Below are positions 15,027-31,557 of a stretch of DNA of 64,000 nt, piece after piece (position 1 is the stretch's first letter; each line of letters opens with the position of its first letter). The position numbers were made by a program, and so were the translations under genes. The stretch comes from an uncultured virus (IMG/VR IMGVR_UViG_2690315748_000003). Lineage: Duplodnaviria > Heunggongvirae > Uroviricota > Caudoviricetes. The notes beneath the pieces were generated by a model. It did not search any database. It was not told the DNA's origin and saw nothing but the letters and a program-made list of their open reading frames with translations. Where the stretch lies: positions 1 through 64,000 of IMG/VR virus record IMGVR_UViG_2690315748_000003; one strand, written 5' to 3'.

Positions 15027-15404
15027 ATGAAAAATATTAACGAGGTGCTTCATAAGCTGGCAGAGACCAGATTGTCATGTCCAACTTTTATCATAGATGA
15101 GCTTGAAAGATTATATTACGAGTCGGACGAAAACGGCATGGCTACCGCTCTATTGGAGGCAGACCTATTAGCTACAAAAAAAGAGCTAGCAGAGAAGGAC
15201 CGGACAATAGCCAAACTGACCAAAGATAACGATGTTGTGTTAGAGCAGTCCATGCGGGAGTTAGCAGCAGCGGAAAAGAACTGGCGCGAGAAGGGCGATG
15301 AAAATCGCAGGCTTCGTAAGGCGTTGGAGGATATAGCTGACACTAAAAGAGACTGGTCGGGAGTATATTGCCGAGTTGCAGCCCGTCAGGCATTAGGAGA
15401 GTAA
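15027..15404 (+). CDS. Hypothetical coiled-coil protein
   Basis: AAGGAG RBS. Confidence 0.6.
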   Translation: MKNINEVLHKLAETRLSCPTFIIDELERLYYESDENGMATALLEADLLATKKELAEKDRTIAKLTKDNDVVLEQSMRELAAAEKNWREKGDENRRLRKALEDIADTKRDWSGVYCRVAARQALGE

Positions 15405-17736: not shown

Positions 17737-18666
17737 ATGAATTACGGAGGAATGAAAATGTATTTAGATAAATTCATATTGCCTATAGATGAAGAATCCT
17801 CATTGATAGAACAAAGAATGGCATACAATGGCGGTAGGTTTGGATATGTCGACGAAACTTACCCATGTGGCATTTTCTCAAAAAATCGGTTTTCCGAATT
17901 GAGCTTTTCAAAAATCACAATTTTATATGGAGGAAACGGCTCGGGGAAAAGCACACTTCTAAATCTCATAGCGAATAAATTGGAACTAAATCGAATTGCA
18001 CCATTCAATTCAAGTGAATTGTTCAGTTCATATGTTGAACATTGTAAATTTGAACTTGGACTTGACGACGAGGGATTTAAACATCGAATTCCAAATGGAA
18101 GCAGGATAATCACAAGTGACGATATTTTTGATTATATGCTTACAGTCCGCACAAACAACGATGAAATCGTGGATAGCACAGAAGATATAAGATCGGAATG
18201 GGGAAATCTGAAATTCGGCAATACAGTGAAAATGAATAGCATGGATGATTATGAAGCATTGAGGTTACAGGTGCTCTCAAGAAAAAAATCAATTTCACGC
18301 AGGGAGTTTATTCGCAGAGTCGCCGGCACCGAAATTAAACTGAACAGCAATGGGGAGACAGCCCTGAGTTATTTTAATTCCAAATTTAAAAATGACACAT
18401 TATATTGTTTGGATGAACCGGAGAACAGTCTATCTCCTAAAATGCAGCTTGAACTTGTCAAAATGATAGAGGAAATGGCTCACTATTGCGGATGTCAATT
18501 TATCATTGCAACGCACTCACCGTTTTTACTGGCGATGGAGTTTACAAAAATATATGATTTAGAAGCTAATCCAGTCGACATAAAGCAATGGTGGGAATTA
18601 GAAAACCCAAAAGTGTACTTTGATTTTTTCAATAAGCATAAAGGGCTGTTTCTACACAATAAGTAG
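17737..18666 (+). CDS. Stand-alone ABC/AAA_21-type ATPase
   Basis: GGNGSGKS, SNGE, LDEPENSLS, IIATHSP. Confidence 0.85.
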   Translation: MNYGGMKMYLDKFILPIDEESSLIEQRMAYNGGRFGYVDETYPCGIFSKNRFSELSFSKITILYGGNGSGKSTLLNLIANKLELNRIAPFNSSELFSSYVEHCKFELGLDDEGFKHRIPNGSRIITSDDIFDYMLTVRTNNDEIVDSTEDIRSEWGNLKFGNTVKMNSMDDYEALRLQVLSRKKSISRREFIRRVAGTEIKLNSNGETALSYFNSKFKNDTLYCLDEPENSLSPKMQLELVKMIEEMAHYCGCQFIIATHSPFLLAMEFTKIYDLEANPVDIKQWWELENPKVYFDFFNKHKGLFLHNK

Positions 18667-19524: not shown

Positions 19525-19902
19525 ATGGAGCTGGTAAAGATATCAAATGGACTTCTTACCGAAAAATATACTACTGTCCATCACGAAAAGGATTATCAAT
19601 TCAACGCACCACACTATTTTGAGGTTCATGATCATAGCGGTAACGTCCTGGGCAGTGTTCATTTCCAAGAAGGACCGATCCAAGAAGCTGGAGTAAATGG
19701 AGTGACCAACGAAGATTTAATTGCTATGGTTATTGCTCGTCTGGAAGGATTCCAAAACAGTGAGTTCCGTAATCGGGATAATGCAGTTGCAATCACAAAG
19801 TTGGAAGAAGCGCTTCTGTGGCTTAGAAAACGGACATTAGAACGCGAAGCCCGAGGCGTGGAAGGAACACATACCAAAAGGTCGGGTTCATTATGCACCT
19901 GA
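19525..19902 (+). CDS. tad1: Tad1-like anti-Thoeris signal-sponge protein
   Basis: FQEGP..GV..DL..RL..FQ..F..R.NA.A.T..EEA..W...R...R..R.VEGT pattern of the Tad1 family. Confidence 0.8.
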   Translation: MELVKISNGLLTEKYTTVHHEKDYQFNAPHYFEVHDHSGNVLGSVHFQEGPIQEAGVNGVTNEDLIAMVIARLEGFQNSEFRNRDNAVAITKLEEALLWLRKRTLEREARGVEGTHTKRSGSLCT

Positions 19903-20591: not shown

Positions 20592-21875
20592 ATGGGACGA
20601 AAGAGAGATCCGAAACGGGACGAAGCATTTGATTTATACAAAGCCAGTTCCGGCAACATACGTCTCACAGATATAGCCTCTCAACTTAGTGTATCTGAAG
20701 GTACGGTAAGAGGATGGAAGGCTAAAGATAAGTGGGAGAGTTTGATTGGAGAAGCGAAACATACGGAACGTTCCGATGAAGATGAAACTGATAAAAAAAA
20801 TGAACCTGCAAAGAAAGATGAAGATACAACATCATATCCAGACGATCTTTTTCTAAAAGCTGTCCAAATTGTAGCCGAGGCCAAACAAGCCTCGGTTTCT
20901 TTATTACAGAGAAGAATGAGGATAGGTTATAGCAGAGCGGCCCGACTGATTGATGAAATGGAGCGGCGCAAATTCATTGGTACATATCAAGGTGATAAGC
21001 CGAGGGAAGTATATGCTACTCTGCTTACTGTTGATGCACTATCAAAAGAACTGGGGGAAGCTCCAAAAATACGGAACGCTCCGAAAAAAGTACAGGAACG
21101 CTCCGGTAATATGGAACGTTCCAAAAAAGTACAGAGCGTTCCAGCGATTGTTGAAGAACCTGAACCTGAAATTCCCGATGAGGATGGTTTAACGCCTAAG
21201 CAAAGGATGTTCACTTATGAATACCTTCGAGACTTCAACGCTACCAGGTCAGCGATTGCGGCGGGATACAGTAAGAAAACTGCCTATCAGATTGGTTTCG
21301 CTCTGTTGAAGAAAGTTGAAATACAAAACATCATTCGACAGCATAAGGAAACAATGATCGACGAGGTAGGTTTAAATGCTCAGCGCGTTCTAATGGAGTA
21401 CATGAAGATTGCTTTTGCAGACATAACGGACTACGTAGAATTCGGTCAAAAGGAAGAGGATGTTCTTGGCTTGGAAGGAGACCCCGTGTTTGATCCTGAC
21501 ACTGGAGAAACGAAGAAGTATAGGTACAATTATGTCTCTTTTAAAAACAGTGATGAAATTGATGGAACTCTGGTTTCAGAAGTCAAGCAGGGTAAGGATG
21601 GAGTGAGTGTAAAGCTACACGACAAAACCAAGGCATTGGACGTGCTGACTAAATATATGGATTTGTTGCCAGATAAGCATAAACGAATGGTTGAAGACGA
21701 AAAACTTAAGATGCAGCGTGAGAAACTTGAGCTTGAAAGGGCAAAAGTCACAGGAGAAGGCAATACAGAAGACGATCTAATTGACGATTGGGTAGAGGCG
21801 GTGGTAGGTGATGAAACAGAAGGATTCACCGGAGACGAAACGGAGGCTTCAAGCATTCAAGAAACGAATTCCTGA
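20592..21875 (+). CDS. terS: Terminase small subunit with internal FtsK/SpoIIIE gamma domain
   Basis: N-terminal HTH (VSEGTVRGWKAKDKW); ASVSLLQRRMRIGYSRAARLIDEME; LTPKQRMF..NATRSAIAAGYS. Confidence 0.9.
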   Translation: MGRKRDPKRDEAFDLYKASSGNIRLTDIASQLSVSEGTVRGWKAKDKWESLIGEAKHTERSDEDETDKKNEPAKKDEDTTSYPDDLFLKAVQIVAEAKQASVSLLQRRMRIGYSRAARLIDEMERRKFIGTYQGDKPREVYATLLTVDALSKELGEAPKIRNAPKKVQERSGNMERSKKVQSVPAIVEEPEPEIPDEDGLTPKQRMFTYEYLRDFNATRSAIAAGYSKKTAYQIGFALLKKVEIQNIIRQHKETMIDEVGLNAQRVLMEYMKIAFADITDYVEFGQKEEDVLGLEGDPVFDPDTGETKKYRYNYVSFKNSDEIDGTLVSEVKQGKDGVSVKLHDKTKALDVLTKYMDLLPDKHKRMVEDEKLKMQREKLELERAKVTGEGNTEDDLIDDWVEAVVGDETEGFTGDETEASSIQETNS

Positions 21876-23268
21876 GTATCGCAAGAATCCCATATTGTTC
21901 TGTCAAGAAATGCTTAAGTTCTATCCTGATGATTGGCAGGCAAGCACTCTAATGGATTTAGCTAATAATCCTCGTGTTTCAGTACGTTCAGGTCAAGGCG
22001 TAGGAAAAACAGGATTAGAAGCGGCAACAGCTCTATGGTTCTTGTCGTGTTTCCCATATCCAAAGGTAATTTGTACAGCTCCTACAAGACAGCAGCTACA
22101 TGACGTGTTATGGGCTGAGATAAATAAATGGCAGTCCAAAAGCCCAGTGCTGAAAAGAATCCTTAAATGGACTAAAACCAAAATCTACATGAAGAACTAC
22201 GAGGAACGCTGGTTCGCTACAGCTCGTACAGCTACCAAGCCTGAGAATATGCAAGGCTTTCACGAGGACTACATGCTATTTATTGTGGATGAGGCATCGG
22301 GTGTTGCTGATCCAATCATGGAAGCCATTTTAGGTACTCTGTCGGGTGAGTTCAATAAAATATTGATGTGCGGCAACCCGACAAAAACGTCGGGTGTTTT
22401 TTATGATTCGCACAATAAGGACAGAGCGGATTATAAGACACGCAAGGTTTCATGCTTGGACAGTCCAAGAACAAGCAAGGATAATATCGCTATGCTCAAG
22501 CGTAAGTATGGTGAAGGCAGTGATGTATGGAGAGTCCGGGTTGAAGGTGAATTCCCCCGTGGAGAATCGGATACATTTATTTCGTTGGAAGTGGCTGAAT
22601 TTGCAGCTAAAGAAGTGAAGCTGGACCCCAGCGGAGATACGCTAACCATAGGCGTTGACGTTGCACGATTTGGTGATGATGAAACCTCAATGTTTGCTGG
22701 TATAGGGCCAAGAGTTGTAGGAGAACACCATCATTTCAAGAAAGACACAATGGTTACTGCTGGTTGGGTAATCAGCCTGGCTAAAGAGCTACATAAAGCT
22801 CATCCATATTTAAATCGAATCAGAATAAGAGTAGATGATAGCGGTGTAGGTGGAGGAGTAACGGATCGACTAAATGAAATCGTAGCTGAAGAAGGGCTAC
22901 CATATGAGATCATTCCAATTAACAATGGCTCTTCTTCTTTAGATGAGCACTATGGGAACCTGGTTACTGAAATGTGGGCATCCATAAAGGAACAATTAGA
23001 ACAGAATATGAGCAATTTTATAAATGGAGATGTGAGCGTTCTGCAATTGCCTGATGATGATGTTCTTATAACCCAACTTACAGCACGTAAATGGAACATG
23101 ACCAGTAAAGGGAAAATACTGCTTGAAAGTAAGAAAGATATGAAAAGGCGTGGGCTTAAGTCTCCAGACAGAGCTGACGCTTTTGTTTTGACATTCGGAG
23201 AATATTTAATGGAACCAGATACACATATTATGCTTCCTTCAATAGGTAGTGTTGCAGTAAGAAGGTAA
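21808..23268 (+). CDS. terL: Terminase large subunit
   Basis: SGQGVGKT Walker A, IVDEASG Walker B, GVDVARFGDD, SPDRADA. Confidence 0.95.
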   Translation: MMKQKDSPETKRRLQAFKKRIPEYRKNPILFCQEMLKFYPDDWQASTLMDLANNPRVSVRSGQGVGKTGLEAATALWFLSCFPYPKVICTAPTRQQLHDVLWAEINKWQSKSPVLKRILKWTKTKIYMKNYEERWFATARTATKPENMQGFHEDYMLFIVDEASGVADPIMEAILGTLSGEFNKILMCGNPTKTSGVFYDSHNKDRADYKTRKVSCLDSPRTSKDNIAMLKRKYGEGSDVWRVRVEGEFPRGESDTFISLEVAEFAAKEVKLDPSGDTLTIGVDVARFGDDETSMFAGIGPRVVGEHHHFKKDTMVTAGWVISLAKELHKAHPYLNRIRIRVDDSGVGGGVTDRLNEIVAEEGLPYEIIPINNGSSSLDEHYGNLVTEMWASIKEQLEQNMSNFINGDVSVLQLPDDDVLITQLTARKWNMTSKGKILLESKKDMKRRGLKSPDRADAFVLTFGEYLMEPDTHIMLPSIGSVAVRR

Positions 23269-23607
23269 CTTGCTAAGTAAGGAGATTCAATCAAAGTATC
23301 TGAATAATGAGAGTGAGTTTGATTACAACAGTTGTGGGAAGATATCGAAAGTTCCTTCAGACGAATTAAGCCTTATGTAGTCAAAATTGGCGGCTTTTTT
23401 ATAGCGATTGTATTCCAAAAAAAATAGTGTGACAATTGAGGTTGACATTACCCAACTTCAATTGTAATTATTTGTCGAATTAAAGGTGCTCAAGGCACTT
23501 GTATTAATTTGGGAAATGGAATATGTAAAATGTGATATATAGGCTATGTGAATATAAATCCCAAAATGTTAATATTTAATGGAAATATATAAATAAGGAG
23601 TGAGAGA

Positions 23608-24279
23608 ATGAGTTTTAAAAAAATTTTATCTTTATCAGTTGCATTTGCCTTAACCTTAGGTTTGGCAGGACCCCAAGTATTTGCTGAGAATGATATAAGC
23701 AGTTCTCAGAATAAAAATGATATCGTTGTTGAAAACAATGAATTGAATGTTCAATCGGTAACAACGACGACTTACGGCGAAATTCAGTACATACCTGATA
23801 AGTATTTTCCTAAAAAGCAAACACCTGGGGAAATTCAGCCGATGTTTATACCAGCGGCAGCAGGAATATATTTTATCCCTGGTGTTGGTGAAGTAGCTTT
23901 GGTAGCAACTGGAGCAGTGGTTGTTGGAGGAGTAGCTTATTATGCTGGTTCTGCTGTATATGAAAAAGTTAGAGTTTACTTTGCTGAAAAAGACGCAGCA
24001 GAAAAAGAAGCAGCAGAAGAAAAAAGTTATCAAGATGCTAAACAAAGAGGCGTTCCAGCGGGCACACACTCTGAAAAGTATCCCCCCTTTAACAAGTTGG
24101 GCGTAAATGGAAAGCCTCGTTCTTCAGAAGATTTGTATGATAGTAAAGGCTTGAAACAAAGAAGATATTATGATAAAAATGGTAATGCAGATGAGGATAT
24201 AGATTATGATCATTCGAATGCAGATGGATCACACACCTTTCCACATCGCCACAAATGGGTAAACGGACGAAGAATGTAG
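23608..24279 (+). CDS. Secreted polymorphic-toxin-like protein
   Basis: Signal peptide, Gly/Ala hydrophobic hairpin, C-terminal RRYYD..G..DID..H..PHRHKW. Confidence 0.65.
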   Translation: MSFKKILSLSVAFALTLGLAGPQVFAENDISSSQNKNDIVVENNELNVQSVTTTTYGEIQYIPDKYFPKKQTPGEIQPMFIPAAAGIYFIPGVGEVALVATGAVVVGGVAYYAGSAVYEKVRVYFAEKDAAEKEAAEEKSYQDAKQRGVPAGTHSEKYPPFNKLGVNGKPRSSEDLYDSKGLKQRRYYDKNGNADEDIDYDHSNADGSHTFPHRHKWVNGRRM

Positions 24280-24291
24280 GTGAGATATAAA

Positions 24292-24546
24292 ATGAGCGAG
24301 AATGAAATTACTCATCAAGAAATCACAGAATTTTTTCAACAGCACAGGGAAATAGAGTTTTATTATCGCGATAAGTTGTATGCTTTTCTTTCTTACAATG
24401 GAGGTTTTGTGCTTGTTTGTGAAAATAAAGCGATAACTCCTACTTTCGAAACGTATGAAGAGATGGTAGAGAAAGGTTTGATTGACGGAAAGAAATTTTT
24501 GGAGAGATTCAAAAATAATGAATTAATAATTGCTGCTGTACTTTAA
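24292..24546 (+). CDS. Putative immunity protein
   Basis: Small acidic ORF right after toxin, followed by hairpin terminator. Confidence 0.55.
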   Translation: MSENEITHQEITEFFQQHREIEFYYRDKLYAFLSYNGGFVLVCENKAITPTFETYEEMVEKGLIDGKKFLERFKNNELIIAAVL

Positions 24547-24589
24547 CATTTTAGAGGGTGCCTATTAAGGCGCCCTCTTTTTTAATAGT

Positions 24590-25363
24590 GTGCAGATCTG
24601 TATAATGTCGGTCTACTTTTATTTGCGGAAAATTCCGATATATAACAAAAAAAGGAGGAATACTATCTTGAAGAAATACACAGAATATTCGAGCACAAGG
24701 GAATACTTAAAGGACAAGTTTGAATTAAAGCGGAAATGGCCGAGATTCAAAAAAACAATTACGCTAGAGAAACTTGAATTTATTAAAACAACTTTAAAAA
24801 AAGAACATTCTCTAATTGAACTTGGTACTATAAAATCTGATATTGAAGGCGAGTTTGAACAACACAAATCAGTTGCCTCTATAGCGCCTATGATAGCGAT
24901 AGTAATAACAATTTTGGGGATTATTCTTAGCAATAATAATAATGCTAGAAATAGAATTTCTGATCAGACCAGCAGACTGATAGAAAAGGTCAGAGATGTA
25001 AAATTGGAAACACTACCACATGATCAAAAGTTATCAGAAACTGCAAAATACGCAAAAGACGATTTAGACACTTTATTAACACCATTTTTATTAACATATT
25101 CTTATTCATATATCTTCTACATTTTAGGTTTTACTGTGTTAGTGCTTGCCTATTACTTCTATAGTTCAACTAAAACTATAGCTTCGCTTAATACAATAAT
25201 AGCTCAAAGTTATGAGGAGAAGAAAGCAGAGGAAGAGGAGAATAAAGACCGCCAAGATAAGCAGGAGCAATCAGAAAAGGCACTTAAGGAAAAGGAATTA
25301 AAAGATGCAAGAGCTATTTTTGAAAGGAAAAGAATTAGACGTCCTAATAATCTAAAGAAATAA
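24590..25363 (+). CDS. Membrane protein (2 TM), moron
   Basis: Two hydrophobic segments; AT-rich. Confidence 0.6.
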   Translation: MQICIMSVYFYLRKIPIYNKKRRNTILKKYTEYSSTREYLKDKFELKRKWPRFKKTITLEKLEFIKTTLKKEHSLIELGTIKSDIEGEFEQHKSVASIAPMIAIVITILGIILSNNNNARNRISDQTSRLIEKVRDVKLETLPHDQKLSETAKYAKDDLDTLLTPFLLTYSYSYIFYILGFTVLVLAYYFYSSTKTIASLNTIIAQSYEEKKAEEEENKDRQDKQEQSEKALKEKELKDARAIFERKRIRRPNNLKK

Positions 25364-25632
25364 TGACCGTTATTTGAACGAGAAAAGACTGCTTTATGTC
25401 CTGCCACTGGACTTTTGATGCGGTAAATTTATATCATGGAAAATCAAATGAGGAACGCACCGCAGCTTTCGAGCCATGGTAAATCAGGTCGGCCAATGTG
25501 TTGGTCTTTTTACATGGCCCGCGCAGGCGACAAGGTAACGTTACAGTGGAGATATTAACAGTCTGGTCGGACCCCCTTGGGCGGTTCAATTCCGCAACAA
25601 AAACAAGCCGCTCTCAGGCGGCTTGTAAAAAA

Positions 25633-26472
25633 TTATTTAGATGATTCTCCTTCTGGAATAAGCGGTTCAATAGTGTCAATAAAGTCATCGAACTTATTAA
25701 TAAGCTCTATATGTTGCTGATTATCAAGTTCAATTTGCGCTTTTTGGTCTTCCGAGATCTGGCGCCAAATTCTTATTTCTTCTTGTTGAAGTGTAATCTG
25801 TTCTTGTTGTAATTGAATTTGTTGTTGTTGTATTTTTTTATTTTCAGCGTCTTGGATTCCAGATTGATATTCTTGATAAATAGGAAACACCAACGCTGCC
25901 CAAATATCTAAAGTAAATTGGGCTATACGAGCCCAAGTCCACTTATTTTCTTGAGCATGTGGAGTATCCTGTTGTGGGGTTCTGACCTCTAGAGTCGCTT
26001 CTAGATCCGAATTCCCTTCTTTTGGAAGGGTATCTTCAAGAATTTCGGATAGAGACTCTAATTTTGGATAGAGTGAGTCCGGGATTGAAACTGGATGAAG
26101 AGGGATTGAAGATAATTTATTGAAAGCATGTTGCCACTGTGCGATATTCTTAGAAATCAAATTTATTGCTTCTAGATGTTTGTTAAAATTATTTTGAAAA
26201 ATTGAAGGATCGAACAGCTCCATTGCTCTAGATGCTGCCGTTATACTTGAGGAAAGCCGTTCAATTGAATTTAATGAATTTGTGGCATTAATTCCGGCAT
26301 AATGTTTAGTTATTGCAATTGCTTGTTCTTGAGCTTTTATAAATTGATTTAAACTTTCTGATCTTTCTAATCTTTCAAGCTGCACTTGATATTGTAGAAT
26401 AGGCTGGTACATCTGGTTAATAGATTCCTGAAATCTTCTGATTTTTTCAAAAGAATCATTAAAATTTGCCAA
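25633..26472 (-). CDS. Hypothetical protein with one TM and Gln-rich coil, moron
   Basis: AGGAGG RBS; reverse strand. Confidence 0.65.
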   Translation of the reverse strand: MANFNDSFEKIRRFQESINQMYQPILQYQVQLERLERSESLNQFIKAQEQAIAITKHYAGINATNSLNSIERLSSSITAASRAMELFDPSIFQNNFNKHLEAINLISKNIAQWQHAFNKLSSIPLHPVSIPDSLYPKLESLSEILEDTLPKEGNSDLEATLEVRTPQQDTPHAQENKWTWARIAQFTLDIWAALVFPIYQEYQSGIQDAENKKIQQQQIQLQQEQITLQQEEIRIWRQISEDQKAQIELDNQQHIELINKFDDFIDTIEPLIPEGESSK

Positions 26473-26951
26473 GGTTCATCCTCCTAGTTAATTTCTGTGT
26501 ATCACATGTTTAATACTACACATAACAGCTGATTGTGAAAAGTTATTTATGCCAATTAAATTTGAAGATATGATGTATCCGATGTTTTCCCTATTATAAT
26601 GTTATATTTAAAAAAGAGAGGCATCTGGAGCCTGAAGGGACTTAATTGGTTATTTTTCGGGTTATAAATAAGCGTCTGTGTTACTTTGGTGCTGTAAATA
26701 CATAAGATACAAGTCACTCATTTGGGTGGCTTTTTTATTGCCTTGAAAGGTTTAATGATTTGAAGAAGAAGCAGAGAAAGGAGTTTTGCTCCCGTTGAAA
26801 GGACTACCAATACAGCCGAAGAAATACAAAGGTTGTGTATGGGGGAGATGGGGCGGGGTTAAACAGTTTTGTTTACGCCCATGTGTTAAAGAGGAAAAAC
26901 CTTCCTGAATGTCGAATTTTGGAATTAGACAAAAGCTAGGGAGGAATCTTT

Positions 26952-27155
26952 TTGAATGTTTTTGAAGGAGCAAATGTAGATATGTGGGGTGCTGTAGGAG
27001 GAAACAAGCTATTAATATTTATTTTAGCCTCAGTCTTTTGGTGTGTAGTATGCATTCCCATTAAAAAAATACTTGGAAAAAGATTAACTGGAATCCTAGC
27101 AAGTGTAGGTATTCTGGTTATTTTATATTATTGGGCTAAGCTGTTTCTCAATTAG
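26952..27155 (+). CDS. Small 2-TM membrane protein
   Basis: GGAGG RBS, sigma-H-like promoter 26890-26919, downstream terminator. Confidence 0.6.
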   Translation: MNVFEGANVDMWGAVGGNKLLIFILASVFWCVVCIPIKKILGKRLTGILASVGILVILYYWAKLFLN

Positions 27156-27460
27156 GAGCAACCTTCGGGGGCTCTTTTTTTTATTTTGTAGGATTGAATG
27201 TATGTCTTAAGCTTTACTTCTGTTTATGAACGAAATGCTGTAAGGAGTTCAGGGAAGGCATGTACGCGTTTGTGATCATGTTGACTGGTATATGAATATG
27301 CGTCTTGCTTTTGATATTTATTCAAGAGAAATCCTCTTATGGATTAAAAAGTAGTGACATCATCGATTAATCTTGTAATAATAGGTAAGTGATTCTATAT
27401 ACCTAAAATATTAGGTACATAGTCTTGATTTAACACTACATAAATGAGAGGACAAAAAAG

Positions 27461-29887
27461 ATGAAGAAGTGGGTTAATGTTTTCACGGCCGGAATTTTAG
27501 CGACCTCTGTATGGGCTAGCCCCATATTCGCAGCCGATAGTTCACACCAAGTAACAAAGGAAGAAAGCTCTACTGTATCTCAACCTTATGGGGATATGGC
27601 GAACCATTGGGCAACGGATAGCGTTACAAAATGGAGCTACCGAGGTGTGGTTTCGGGTGTAGAAAACGCTCGTTTTGAGCCGAATCGTCCGATTACGAGA
27701 AGTGAGTGGGCTGCTTTACTAAATCGTGCATTTCAAATTCAGCCAGGACAAGCAGCATCTTTTACCGATGTAAATAAAGATGATTGGTTTGCTCCAACCG
27801 TTACGGATGCAGTTTATGCTGGATATATGAAAGGATTCGAAGATGGTAGCTTTCGTCCTGCGCAAGTATTAAGTAGAGAAGAAGCAGCAGTGACCATAAA
27901 CCAATTACTTAAAATCCCTTCTTCCGATACCAATAAAACCTTTAAAGATAGCGCATCTCTGCACAAATGGTCCCAAAAGGCCGTTAATACTGTAGTGGCA
28001 GCGGGTATTATTGAAGGTTACCAGAATGGTACATTTCAGCCTCAAAAATCATTGACTCGTGCTGAGGCGGTTACGATCCTGGATCGTGCTGTGAATCATT
28101 TTGGTGCTTGGTATGGAGAATCAGGAACATATGGGCCTTCGACTGGACTTGCCAAGCAGGCAGGCAATGTAGTCATCAACACAACGGGGGTAACGCTCCA
28201 GAATACGGAAATCGCAGGAGACTTAATTATTGGTAGAGCTGTTGGGAACGGCGATGTATTTTTGAAAAATGTTAAAGTTCACGGTCAAACTTACGTTTAC
28301 GGGGGCGGAGACCATAGTGTTCATCTGAACAATTCTGTGCTGTTTAGCATCATTGTAAACAAAGTGGATGGAACTGTTCGTTTGGTTGCAGAAGGTGCAA
28401 CGTCCATCAGTGAAATAAAAATCAAGACGGGTGCAGCCCTCGATGTCTCACAAGGAGCAAGTGTTGATCGGGTTACTCTAACAAATGAGCTCCCCGCAAA
28501 ATCCAATGTGAGCCTTACAGGTTATTTTCACACTGTGAATGTAGAAGCATTCGCTATTAATGTAAATATCCCAAATGGACAGATTGATACGTTAAACGTA
28601 GCTGACAACGCTACGAATACAACTATAGATACAGCAAAAGAGTCTTCTATTCTCTCGGTAGTTCTTAATGCTGCTGCCAAAGTAATAGGATTAGGTTCTG
28701 TTGATAAAGCTATAGTTAATGCTGAAAATGTTTCTTTTCAAACAAAACCTAAATCTGTGACAAATGGCGACAAGGTAGGTAGTAATGTTAAAGTCACAAT
28801 AGGGAATTCATCAAATACTTTGGGTTCACAAGGGACAACAACATCAGGTGGCGGTGGGGGTTCTTCTAGTAACTCTAATGAATCCGATAATTCCAAAAAA
28901 GATGATCATAAAAAAAGTGACGACAAGAAAGATGATACACCTCAAGTACCGGAGCATAATGGGGACGCTAACATTTCTGTTCCTAAAAAAATAGTGACGG
29001 TCGGAGAGTCCGTTTATTTTACTAGCTCTTATGATGGCACTGCTTACTTTTCAAGTGATTTCATAGATTACCGTAATCTGCAATCCCTTGAGTTGGGTAT
29101 CAAAAGCGGCGAAGTGTTGAAAATTGAGGTTCCGGCGAATAAAACCGTCAGTTTCGCGACATATGATATTAATCATTGGAATTTTCCCAATAACTATGAA
29201 TTTGATCTGACGGTTTATGACAAAAATAGTAACTTTCATAGCAAGGAAGTAACGGTTTTGGATGAGAATGAGCCTTTGGATCAGTCACCGATATTTGTGC
29301 AATATCCTGAAAGAAAGGATAGACTTGATCAATTCTCTGTTGATTATAATCGTTTATTGCATCTTGCAGATGGGAAGACAACGGAAGATATAGTTCAGTG
29401 GTCTGTTGGCGATGGTTCTTTTACGCCCTTCACAAAGGAAGATGGGGCCGTAAGAGTTGAGGACAATAAAGTCTTTATATTGCCTAAACATTTGGAGGAT
29501 CGGTTGGTTTATAAATTCCGTTTAATCACAGACTCCGTGGTTACATCAAATGGTGAATTCAATAAAGAATTTCAGACCTGGGGAGATAGAAAAACGGTCA
29601 GAATTACAATGATTCAATCTACCGGGGATATATTAAAGGTTAAAAAAGGAGGCGACATTACATTCTCTCTTTCAGATGTTTCAGAAGTGTATCTGCTAAA
29701 TACATTTGTTTGGGGAGGCCAAGGTAACTACGACGATTTGGTCGCAGAAAACTGGGGTAAAAAGATAATTGTTACGGATGATGAAGTAAATAAACCAGTT
29801 ACTATTTCTACAGGCGCGTTGCCGCCCGGGAAGTATAAACTTGATGTTTGGGATGGACAATACTTGGATCTGGAAATTGTAGAGTAA
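27461..29887 (+). CDS. S-layer homology (SLH) cell-surface protein
   Basis: Signal peptide; three SLH repeats (FEPNRPITRSE, FRPAQVLSREE, FQPQKSLTRAE). Confidence 0.9.
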   Translation: MKKWVNVFTAGILATSVWASPIFAADSSHQVTKEESSTVSQPYGDMANHWATDSVTKWSYRGVVSGVENARFEPNRPITRSEWAALLNRAFQIQPGQAASFTDVNKDDWFAPTVTDAVYAGYMKGFEDGSFRPAQVLSREEAAVTINQLLKIPSSDTNKTFKDSASLHKWSQKAVNTVVAAGIIEGYQNGTFQPQKSLTRAEAVTILDRAVNHFGAWYGESGTYGPSTGLAKQAGNVVINTTGVTLQNTEIAGDLIIGRAVGNGDVFLKNVKVHGQTYVYGGGDHSVHLNNSVLFSIIVNKVDGTVRLVAEGATSISEIKIKTGAALDVSQGASVDRVTLTNELPAKSNVSLTGYFHTVNVEAFAINVNIPNGQIDTLNVADNATNTTIDTAKESSILSVVLNAAAKVIGLGSVDKAIVNAENVSFQTKPKSVTNGDKVGSNVKVTIGNSSNTLGSQGTTTSGGGGGSSSNSNESDNSKKDDHKKSDDKKDDTPQVPEHNGDANISVPKKIVTVGESVYFTSSYDGTAYFSSDFIDYRNLQSLELGIKSGEVLKIEVPANKTVSFATYDINHWNFPNNYEFDLTVYDKNSNFHSKEVTVLDENEPLDQSPIFVQYPERKDRLDQFSVDYNRLLHLADGKTTEDIVQWSVGDGSFTPFTKEDGAVRVEDNKVFILPKHLEDRLVYKFRLITDSVVTSNGEFNKEFQTWGDRKTVRITMIQSTGDILKVKKGGDITFSLSDVSEVYLLNTFVWGGQGNYDDLVAENWGKKIIVTDDEVNKPVTISTGALPPGKYKLDVWDGQYLDLEIVE

Positions 29888-30021
29888 AACGTAATGCCGT
29901 AGGTACGTGGACTAAGCATTACGATATTATAAGTGGTCAGGAAACTTTTCCTGACCACTTTTTTGTTCCAATATTCCGCCTTAAAAGAAGATATATGTAA
30001 GCATAATGCCTATCCTCTCGA

Positions 30022-30059
30022 AAATCAGTAGTAAATCCGAATAAAACTGATGTTATCCT
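30022..30059 (+). promoter_or_regulatory. Putative late promoter 2 (portal)
   Basis: AATCAGTAGTA with TGnTATCCT. Confidence 0.65.
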
Positions 30060-30078
30060 TTATTCATAGAAGTTTGCA

Positions 30079-31557
30079 ATGAAAGGCGGTGAAATCTTGG
30101 AATGGTATCATAGAGCTGTATATTCATTTGCTAATGCTGTTCTTCCGGCAACGGTAAAACGGCAGATGATGGGCGTGGGCAGGACGACAGTCCCGAAAAA
30201 CTCTAACCCATGGGGAATATTTAACTGGTTGCCTAAAAAACATCAGCAGGCTCACAATATAGACCTAACCAAGCTGCAAAGCTATACGGCGGAGGAGTTG
30301 CTTGAGCTTCTGATATCTGTTCATCCAGACGTATCCTATGCTTTGTACACATACTTACGTATGGGAGATACCGATTTAACATTTACAGCTAAGAAGCCAA
30401 ACGGGAATGTAGATAAGGGCGGACAACGGGTACTGGATGAACTCAAATCTCTGCTAAACACACCGCTACCTTCGCCAGGATATCAGCATGGACGGTCGTT
30501 GAATAAACTGGACACGATCCAACGGATGATGATTATGGTCCGTGGTGCGTGTGCTGGAGAGGTAGTCTTGAATGAACAGTGCAATGATGTGATTGATATT
30601 GTTCCAGTTGATCCGGCTTTAATTTGGTTTCGTAGGGAGCCGGAGACTAATCGCCTTACACCGTGGCAATACGTGAAAAACCCGCGAAGGAATGCAAATG
30701 AAGAATGGTTCGGTAATTACAAGAAGATCGACACACCAACATTCATTTATGAAGAGTTTGATCCTATGGTTGATGATCCTTATGGACGAACGCCTATGCT
30801 TCCGGTACTGCAAGTAGTATTCTTTCATCTTCAAGTGCTGGCTGACCTAAAAGCAGTCGTGCATAACCAAGGATATCCACGGCTTGATATCTCCATGCTG
30901 GAAGAAATCATGCTGAAGAATATGCCGAACAACTTGAAAAGTAATCCCGATGGTCAACAGAAATGGCTCAAAGAGCGAATGGAAGAGATGATAAACCACT
31001 TCAACTCACTTAATCCAGACGATGCCCTTGTCCACTGGGATAGTGTAAAGGTCGAGTATCTAAAAGGCGGTAATTCGGGGCCGATGATTGATATCAAGAA
31101 GCTGATTGATATCATTGATACCCAAATGGCTACTTCACTCAAAACATTGCTGACCATTCTTTCAAGGCATCAAGGCTCAACCGAAACATACAGCTCTATT
31201 GATACTCAAATATATATCAAAAATGTAGAGTCCGCGCGGAGCGTAACCAAACGTTTCTGGCAGCGGGCTTTTTCGTTGTCCGCAAGAGTAAAAGGGACTC
31301 AAACAAAAGTTGAAGCTGACTACCTCCCCATTGATCTACGCTCTGAAAATGAGATTGAACGTGACCGCCGTTCAAAGATCGATAACTACATCATAGCGGA
31401 GAAGAATTTCTACATCACACCGTTGGAAGCTGCTGAAGAAATACGTTGGACACTTGGTATTAATGCCAAAATTCCTGCTGAATTACTTCCTTTGCTTGTA
31501 AAGAAGCATGAATCTGATTCGAATGAAGAAAATACTCCATCGGAGGGAGGTGAATAA
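30079..31557 (+). CDS. Portal protein
   Basis: Size, first head gene, DDPYGRTPM motif. Confidence 0.8.
   Translation: MKGGEILEWYHRAVYSFANAVLPATVKRQMMGVGRTTVPKNSNPWGIFNWLPKKHQQAHNIDLTKLQSYTAEELLELLISVHPDVSYALYTYLRMGDTDLTFTAKKPNGNVDKGGQRVLDELKSLLNTPLPSPGYQHGRSLNKLDTIQRMMIMVRGACAGEVVLNEQCNDVIDIVPVDPALIWFRREPETNRLTPWQYVKNPRRNANEEWFGNYKKIDTPTFIYEEFDPMVDDPYGRTPMLPVLQVVFFHLQVLADLKAVVHNQGYPRLDISMLEEIMLKNMPNNLKSNPDGQQKWLKERMEEMINHFNSLNPDDALVHWDSVKVEYLKGGNSGPMIDIKKLIDIIDTQMATSLKTLLTILSRHQGSTETYSSIDTQIYIKNVESARSVTKRFWQRAFSLSARVKGTQTKVEADYLPIDLRSENEIERDRRSKIDNYIIAEKNFYITPLEAAEEIRWTLGINAKIPAELLPLLVKKHESDSNEENTPSEGGE

What the first reader, a model, noticed from the sequence alone, without database searches (positions are those of the whole stretch)
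20592..21875. Terminase small subunit with an inserted FtsK/SpoIIIE gamma domain
Seen: 20841-21014 encodes DDLFLKAVQIV..ASVSLLQRRMRIGYSRAARLIDEMERRKFIG..GDKPREVY between the TerS HTH and the TerS core. Known: this is the winged-helix gamma domain that reads KOPS/SRS octamers to orient chromosomal DNA translocases. Inference: it may give the packaging motor a second DNA specificity or directionality, bias transduction of host DNA, or compete with host SpoIIIE.
Basis: partly seen in the sequence, partly recalled or inferred. Interest (0 to 1): 0.75.

Follow-up and report, generated by a model that had tools for sequence, protein, structure and literature searches.

The report
Phage terminase carrying host DNA-reading domain
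A Paenibacillus prophage's DNA-packaging starter protein really does carry a copy of the DNA-reading domain of its host's chromosome pump, a fusion published once before, but the domain looks like an optional extra grip, while packaging specificity seems to come from a neighbouring domain that reads short palindromes inside the gene itself.

Summary
Confirmed. ORF 20592-21875 is a prophage small terminase with an FtsK/SpoIIIE gamma domain at aa 84-142 (Pfam 88 bits; 70-77% identical to Paenibacillus SpoIIIE gamma; dN/dS 0.09). New here: gamma is an internal, optional insert in PF10668-type TerS, giving three DNA-binding domains; its presence switches at least 8-14 times on the core tree; Paenibacillus and Brevibacillus phages carry gamma resembling their own host genus, at different insertion points (separate captures favoured, not proven: AU p=0.37). 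No conserved SRS/KOPS or dif site lies near terS. Instead five GGARCGYTCC-type palindromes lie inside terS, flanking gamma. Such arrays occur with or without gamma, follow the N-terminal HTH's recognition helix (44 of 44), and are absent from 13 of 13 PBSX-like elements, which package random DNA. Best reading: HTH1 plus palindromes set packaging specificity; gamma, displayed in many copies on the TerS ring, adds accessory DNA binding (0.5). Host-directed roles (transduction bias, SpoIIIE competition) stay open (0.25). New variant of a known kind.

The parts
20592..21875 (+). terS, small terminase subunit, 427 aa: HTH1 - linker - FtsK gamma - linker - HTH2 - oligomerisation core
   Evidence: phrog_2606, E 1.5e-86
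20592..20741 (+). HTH1 (PF10668), recognition helix TVRGWK; inferred reader of the palindrome array
   Evidence: covariation; dN/dS 0.20
20765..20774 (.). palindrome copy 1, GGAACGTTCC, upstream of gamma (read as T-E-R-S); often decayed in relatives
20841..21017 (+). FtsK/SpoIIIE gamma winged-helix domain (aa 84-142), host-derived insert
   Evidence: dN/dS 0.089
21073..21082 (.). palindrome copy 2, GGAACGCTCC (read in another frame, R-N-A-P)
21095..21104 (.). palindrome copy 3, GGAACGCTCC (22 bp after copy 2)
21113..21122 (.). palindrome copy 4, GGAACGTTCC (18 bp after copy 3)
21133..21142 (.). palindrome copy 5, AGAGCGTTCC (20 bp after copy 4; one change from GGARCGYTCC)
21180..21332 (+). HTH2, SF6/SPP1 G1P-type DNA-binding domain (aa 197-247)
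   Evidence: 4zc3, 2cmp; rmsd 1.0-1.5 A
21333..21722 (+). TerS oligomerisation core (rest of Terminase_2)
   Evidence: 3zqq
21808..23268 (+). terL, large terminase subunit
   Evidence: phrog_2, E 7e-51
30079..31557 (+). portal protein, separated from terL by about 6.8 kb of accessory genes
   Evidence: phrog_3753, E 5e-66
15288..15295 (+). the only GAGAAGGG (B. subtilis SRS) in the 65.6-kb record; chance level

Best explanation
Gamma is an accessory DNA-binding arm taken from the host's own SpoIIIE and hung on a flexible linker of the small terminase. Shown: it is a complete, selected gamma domain inserted inside an older array of 10-bp palindromes in the terS gene, and relatives lacking it keep the same HTH1 and array. 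Inferred: TerS forms a ring (mostly nonamers in solved phage TerS); HTH1 domains bind the palindromes (18-23 bp apart) and mark the phage DNA, with a headful first cut near terS; the ring shows about nine gamma copies, enough to overcome the weak binding of single gamma domains, so gamma raises affinity, dwell time or wrapping on DNA with at most a loose preference for purine-rich SRS-like words. It helps packaging initiation but sets neither the site nor the direction.
For: Gamma under purifying selection: dN/dS 0.089 (helices 0.046) against 1.02 in the linker before it, 15 polymyxa-group genes. Optional: 14 label changes on a 135-row core tree, 8 forced by starred branches; near-identical cores with and without it (P0040/P0062, P0066/P0106 with a clean deletion), decayed copies (P0083, P0067) and a doubled one (P0057). 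Array: 4 exact GGAACG[CT]TCC in 65.6 kb, all in terS; 107 copies in 16.2 kb of linker against 4 in 770 kb of flanks, in all three frames (67/32/8); a paired array found in 5 whole genomes only at the prophage terS (2 of 5 genomes). Significant arrays in 30 of 31 gamma-plus and 32 of 40 gamma-minus linkers, 0 of 13 PBSX-like; PBSX packs random 13-kb host DNA (PMC7667829). Helix class predicts the palindrome: T[VI]RGWK 44 of 44, Q[VI]RKWK 7 of 7, TIS.WK 3 of 3, T[LIV][RK]SRK 12 of 12, no cross-overs; 5 of 5 further GenBank phages of known helix class fit. B83, with the same palindrome in terS, is a headful packager cut about 96 bp upstream of terS (PMC6669507). Single gamma binds KOPS poorly and a covalent trimer binds better (PMC3384302). 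TerS rings are mostly nonamers (PMC9611059). Gamma is a portable module also fused to Mrr, TIR, DnaJ and AlbA domains. Paenibacillus-clade phage gamma is more basic than host gamma (mean +3.6 against +1.2) and its wing has drifted from the near-invariant host wing.
Against: No binding or packaging data. Gamma's conserved surface serves both DNA and XerD (PMC5052618), so conservation cannot tell the partner. GAGAAGGG is 1.6-fold above expectation in gamma-plus loci (27 against 16.9 in 543 kb, Poisson p 0.014, loci not independent; gamma-minus 4 against 5.3). HTH1 and the array are neighbours on the DNA, so linkage contributes to their covariation, and the array could be an autoregulatory operator rather than a pac signal. 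PBSX-like linkers are short (mean 75 nt) and closely related, so 0 of 13 counts as few independent cases. B83's TerS matched the query on HTH1 and was not among the 40 listed whole-protein hits, so its cut position is only an analogy. Brevibacillus-clade phage gamma is barely more basic than its host's (+0.5 against +0.1). Oligomeric state and headful packaging were not tested for this phage.
Confidence: 0.5

Rival explanations
1. Host-directed function: the TerS ring is a multivalent SRS reader acting on the host chromosome. It either loads terminase at polarised host sites (oriented generalized transduction or host DNA cutting) or occupies SRS and hinders the host's SpoIIIE, delaying septal DNA transfer or sporulation during lytic growth.
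For: Phage gamma resembles the host genus: the Paenibacillus-type clade keeps EAKQASVS and a Brevibacillus-type clade of 32 sits among Brevibacillus SpoIIIE gamma (99/80). Recognition-helix residues match the host. GAGAAGGG is polarised on a Paenibacillus chromosome (G099: 68 of the first 84 on the + strand, 172 in all; hand count, test) while the phage has one. Most Paenibacillus genomes show a single gamma-bearing long ORF. Transduction by host-SRS binding was proposed in PMC8190038.
Against: Host matching follows from recent capture alone. The wing has diverged from the host's. Free-standing gamma genes exist for such a job, one even in the G098 prophage beside a gamma-TerS. GAGAAGGG is not over-represented in G099 (172 against 213 for the reversed control), and that it is the Paenibacillus SRS was not shown. 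Packaging host DNA costs the phage capsids.
Confidence: 0.25
2. Gamma works by protein contact, activating host XerD (RipX) to resolve phage multimers or chromosome dimers at dif-like sites.
For: The nine residues that suffice to activate XerD in E. coli (1289-1297, PMC5052618) align with aa 107-115 and are nearly invariant. Strong dif-like sites lie near the terminase genes of five relatives (L019, L037, L100, PM1, D6E; score 24-26, none at 23 or more in 520 kb of simulated sequence).
Against: No strong dif-like site in the window's record or in the Paenibacillus gamma-plus loci scanned; 3 of the 5 phages with such a site lack gamma. Resolving concatemers would remove the packaging substrate (inference).
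Confidence: 0.1
3. One reading: gamma reads an SRS/KOPS-like octamer on the phage genome and gives the packaging motor a second specificity or its direction.
For: The HTH1 sites are palindromes and carry no direction; gamma is a known direction reader; relaxed GAGAAGG is strand-biased in the window (9 forward, 1 reverse).
Against: No conserved SRS position: 12 of 23 gamma-plus loci have none in up to 10 kb on either side; 2 of 31 against 1 of 12 near terS, and a search for 7- and 8-mers shared by both gamma clades and rare in gamma-minus loci gave only a few words, none SRS-like. GAGAAG strand bias equals Markov expectation (30 against 32.6). Sam46 has no GAGAAGGG.
Confidence: 0.1
4. Neutral passenger: a captured host fragment tolerated in a disordered linker.
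For: Frequent loss, decayed copies, insertion in a low-confidence linker.
Against: dN/dS 0.046 in its helices, equal to the TerS core (0.051), beside a linker at 1.02; retention across several genera; recurrence in an unrelated TerS (Sam46).
Confidence: 0.05

Closest known systems
gp1 small terminase of Bacillus phages vB_BcM_Sam46 / Sam112 (Kazantseva et al. 2021, PMC8190038; passages and abstract read)
   Same: FtsK_gamma fused to Terminase_2; gamma closest to host-lineage SpoIIIE; gamma 60-61% identical to the window's; the same functional hypotheses were proposed.
   Different: There gamma is N-terminal with no PF10668 HTH, on a distant TerS core (long branch; 35% over 165 aa), in myoviruses described with pac about 4.5 kb upstream; no perfect 10-bp palindrome in gp1 or at its pac. 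Here gamma is internal, in a temperate siphovirus, inside a palindrome array.
FtsK/SpoIIIE gamma domain (PF09397; PDB 2j5p, 2ve8, 2ve9, 5dcf)
   Same: Sequence, fold and the KOPS- and XerD-contact residues.
   Different: Not attached to an alpha-beta ATPase motor or membrane anchor; the wing is variable; displayed on a TerS ring rather than a hexameric translocase.
PF10668 + Terminase_2 small terminases (D6E, PM1, phi4J1; PBSX XtmA) and SF6/SPP1 G1P
   Same: HTH1, SF6-type HTH2 and core; position before terL.
   Different: They lack gamma; SF6 G1P has only the HTH2 equivalent; PBSX-like XtmA lacks the palindrome array.
Phage P1 pac site inside pacA (named in earlier scan notes e1-410564 and e1-442403; otherwise recalled, not checked here)
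   Same: Short repeats inside the small-terminase gene as the likely binding sites of its product.
   Different: Different TerS family and repeat sequence; no gamma domain.

Membership tests
FtsK_gamma domain (PF09397) | Profile match above the curated cut-off over nearly the whole model | tested here: met
   88.4 bits against 30.6, positions 4-62 of 63
FtsK_gamma domain (PF09397) | Winged-helix fold | tested here: met
   model pLDDT about 90; 2ve9 rmsd 1.2-1.6 A, target TM 0.86-0.90
FtsK_gamma domain (PF09397) | KOPS-recognition residues (E. coli R1300, E1303, E1306) | tested here: met
   R118, D121, E124, as in host SpoIIIE; mapping by my numbering of the alignment
FtsK_gamma domain (PF09397) | Sequence-specific binding of KOPS/SRS | not testable with these tools
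   no conserved or clearly enriched site on the phage side
FtsK_gamma domain (PF09397) | XerD activation | not testable with these tools
   contact peptide conserved; no dif site in the record
FtsK/SpoIIIE translocase | Alpha-beta ATPase motor with gamma at the C-terminus | tested here: not met
   no PF01580 or PF17854; NCBIfam FtsK 38.7 bits against cut-off 1566; database names 'cell division protein FtsK' on some homologues are misleading
Small terminase (PF10668 + Terminase_2) | Profile matches and position directly before terL in a head-gene module | tested here: met
Small terminase (PF10668 + Terminase_2) | Ring oligomer | not tested
   core resembles SF6 nonamer 3zqq; no oligomer prediction was run
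Small terminase (PF10668 + Terminase_2) | Recognition site in or near terS | tested here: inconclusive
   array and covariation; no binding data; raw reads gave 0 laid
Sam46-type gamma-TerS | N-terminal gamma directly followed by Terminase_2 | tested here: not met
   gamma is internal, behind PF10668; cores distant: analogous fusion, separate event

The most novel reading that the evidence does not exclude
Phages of spore-formers have repeatedly captured their own host's SpoIIIE gamma domain onto the TerS ring to build a roughly nine-valent SRS reader aimed at the host chromosome, which starts oriented packaging of host DNA at polar sites or jams the host's DNA pump to block sporulation, while a separate HTH-palindrome pair keeps the phage's own packaging specific.
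Probability: 0.25. Interest if true: 0.75.

Novelty: new variant of a known kind. Interest (0 to 1): 0.5.

Why it matters
The fusion itself is published, so the surprise is moderate. Two things make it useful. First, natural sister proteins with, without, with decayed and with doubled gamma, in a tractable host, allow a direct test of what gamma does on a terminase, which the 2021 paper left as hypothesis; repeated capture would point to a real selective benefit. Second, the palindrome array that follows HTH1 gives short, predicted binding sites for a large TerS family, while a 2022 review (PMC9611059) calls TerS DNA recognition an unanswered question and reports mostly weak, non-specific binding for headful packagers. 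Loss of the array in PBSX-like elements offers a simple explanation of their random packaging.

Tried and rejected
Single-sequence fold was useless (pLDDT 40) and was replaced by an alignment fold. Monophyly of phage gamma could not be rejected (AU p 0.371; 58 columns), although the best tree splits them into 3 groups and 0 of 200 bootstrap trees join them; that tree left out 2 decayed and 4 truncated phage domains and used 31 of 69 distinct Paenibacillus host domains. SRS/KOPS enrichment or a fixed position near terS: not found. Gamma-specific k-mers near terS: none SRS-like. A dif site in the window's record: none (patterns recalled or built). Sequencing runs: best share of words 0.28; two contig sets showed related terS/terL only and two raw-read runs laid 0 reads, so no packaging ends. 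The KOPS co-crystal paper (Lowe 2008) was not held, so the role of the wing is not cited. No complex prediction was run: gamma-XerD is a solved pair and would pass by likeness. A residue-level helix-to-base code was considered and dropped: TISGWK goes with GGAGTACTCC but TIS[NA]WK with GTAGTACTAC, so only helix classes are claimed. Searches for a paper on PF10668 palindrome arrays or on an internal gamma in this family (listings only) showed only PMC8190038 for the fusion; the library lacks most subscription papers, and supplements of PMC8190038 were not opened.

Full report
Observation. The window is almost all of a 65,641-base virus record: an integrase-to-lysis siphoviral prophage with host genes at the right end. 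Its closest TerS homologues are named from Paenibacillus polymyxa and relatives. ORF 20592-21875 has PF10668 at aa 1-50, FtsK_gamma at aa 84-142 (88.4 bits, cut-off 30.6) and Terminase_2 at aa 200-377. Solved gamma domains and the SF6 TerS HTH match by sequence and by fold. The protein is three DNA-binding domains on flexible linkers ahead of the oligomerisation core.

Precedent. A look-up of earlier scan notes pointed to Kazantseva et al. 2021 (PMC8190038; abstract, outline and passages read; supplements not opened). It describes an N-terminal FtsK_gamma on the small terminase of Sam46/Sam112, finds it closest to Bacillus gamma, and proposes KOPS/SRS-like loading sites, oriented packaging and host-DNA mispackaging. 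Three scan notes report gamma-TerS fusions on other DNA (not checked by me). The kind is therefore known.

Distribution. 81 of the 120 listed homologues carry gamma (the list is ranked on the whole query and so favours gamma-plus), from Paenibacillus, Cohnella, Brevibacillus and one B. thuringiensis record. Gamma-TerS was seen in 8 of 93 genomes of the Paenibacillus genus set, including the genomes through which I entered, and confirmed in 4 of 61 of the Brevibacillus family set (six loci fetched). On a tree of the Terminase_2 core (135 rows, quick method) the label needs 14 changes, 8 forced by starred branches. Sister pairs differ by a clean deletion (P0106), decay (P0083, P0067) or doubling (P0057). 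Gamma is optional.

Origin. Among longer proteins the 120 best hits carry FtsK/SpoIIIE motor domains and are named mostly from Paenibacillus, 67-77% identical on gamma. Brevibacillus-type phage gamma carries the Brevibacillus host signature and nests among those hosts (99/80); Paenibacillus-type phage gamma forms its own clade of 43 (96/82) beside Paenibacillus hosts. Insertion points differ: palindrome-coded peptides precede gamma in 30 of 42 Paenibacillus-clade and 0 of 31 Brevibacillus-clade proteins. Against this, the AU test does not reject one phage clade (p 0.371). Separate captures are favoured, not proven; Sam46 is a further event on a distant core.

Selection. Over 15 polymyxa-group genes dN/dS is 0.089 for gamma (0.046 helices, 0.16 wing), 1.02 for the linker before it, 0.20 for HTH1 and 0.05 for the core. 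The KOPS-recognition residues (PMC2680272, passages) and the XerD-contact peptide (PMC5052618, passages) are kept; the wing varies where the hosts barely do. Because one surface serves DNA and XerD, conservation does not name the partner.

Target on the phage genome. GAGAAGGG occurs once (15288) and GGGNAGGG once in the record, at or below expectation. In 29 gamma-plus loci it is 27 against 16.9 expected, scattered and from related loci; 12 of the 23 whose positions I listed have none; near terS 2 of 31 against 1 of 12 gamma-minus. On chromosome G099 the motif is strand-polarised but not over-represented. No strong dif-like site lies in the record or the Paenibacillus loci scanned; five relatives have one near their terminase genes, three of them without gamma.

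The palindrome array. All 4 exact GGAACG[CT]TCC copies of the record, and a fifth variant, lie in terS around gamma and are read in different frames; relatives change the amino acids while keeping GGARCGYTCC. In 84 distinct linkers, arrays beat shuffles in 30 of 31 gamma-plus, 32 of 40 gamma-minus and 0 of 13 PBSX-like (PBSX gene order recognised from recall in L153). The HTH1 helix class predicts the palindrome with no cross-over (44 of 44, 12 of 12, 7 of 7, 3 of 3; five singleton helices, two with their own palindrome and three without a listed one). Of 7 further GenBank phages, 5 of known class fit, B83 (TIRKWK) has the window's palindrome three times, and 0105phi7-2 has a new helix and new palindromes. 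B83 is a headful packager cut about 96 bp upstream of terS (PMC6669507, passages). PBSX packs random 13-kb host DNA (PMC7667829, passages). In five whole genomes a paired array occurs only at the prophage terS of the two that carry it. Caveats: HTH1 and array are linked, PBSX linkers are short and related, and an operator role is not excluded. I had noted the array before reading two scan notes that reach a similar idea for another TerS family.

Mechanism. Shown: anatomy, host-like sequence, selection, dispensability in relatives, array and covariation. Inferred: ring assembly (mostly nonamers, PMC9611059, passages), HTH1 binding of the array to start headful packaging near terS, and gamma working by avidity, since single gamma binds poorly and trimers better (PMC3384302, passages). 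I give 0.5 to accessory DNA binding for packaging, 0.25 to a host-directed SRS role, 0.1 to XerD activation, 0.1 to a second pac signal or direction, 0.05 to neutral carriage. Gamma's fusion to many unrelated partners (85 chosen hits scanned; the search favours proteins with two gamma copies) fits a portable DNA-binding module.

Verdict. Real; a new variant of a published fusion; interest 0.5, carried as much by the testable HTH-palindrome pairing as by gamma.

Noticed in passing
L037:6001-6035; L100:8561-8595; L019:12556-12590 and 15367-15395; L045 (PM1):7158-7192; L046 (D6E):2191-2218: Strong dif-like (XerC/XerD) sites close to the terminase genes of several phages of this TerS family, with or without gamma; L019 has an inverted pair about 2.8 kb apart (second copy weaker). 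B83 has a XerC/D-type recombinase gene directly after terS.
   Followed up: partly
G097, G098, G099 (e.g. G099:C1:3063608-3104561): Several palindromic dif-like sites (two XerD-type arms) cluster near the presumed replication terminus of these Paenibacillus chromosomes.
   Followed up: no
L148, L152-L155, L158, L159, L163, L168-L170, L174, L175: PBSX-like xtmA genes keep HTH1 but have a short linker with no palindrome array, which may explain random packaging.
   Followed up: partly
L089:14080-14277 (-): Free-standing 65-aa gamma gene 6.3 kb upstream of a gamma-TerS in the same prophage (G098); no second gamma-like ORF was noticed in the window.
   Followed up: partly
window 23269-30078: About 6.8 kb of accessory genes between terL and portal: a signal-peptide protein (23608-24279) followed by a small ORF (24280-24546), which looks like a bacterial toxin-immunity pair (inference), membrane ORFs, and an 808-aa SLH-domain protein (27461-29887). 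This region did not match the G098 prophage.
   Followed up: no
window 19525-19902: 125-aa protein with a weak Acb2/Tad1 hairpin match (E 8e-4, below cut-off; phrog_2428 E 9e-45): possible anti-defence sponge upstream of terS.
   Followed up: no
window 17737-18666: Lone ABC-type ATPase with AAA_21 and PtuA/AriA-like matches and no partner nuclease seen beside it.
   Followed up: no
L031 and L032 (G002:C21): Two terS genes with identical printed translations about 60 kb apart on one contig: tandem prophage or assembly artefact.
   Followed up: no
L011:10001-10423: terS reading frame stops right after gamma (141 aa): broken gene or sequencing error.
   Followed up: no
P0073; P0057: Gamma also occurs with a different HTH1 class (P0073) and as two tandem copies (P0057).
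   Followed up: partly
window 7264 and 25535: GTAACGTTAC palindromes, one inside the replication-initiator gene; the same word is the array motif of Q[VI]RKWK-type TerS.
   Followed up: no
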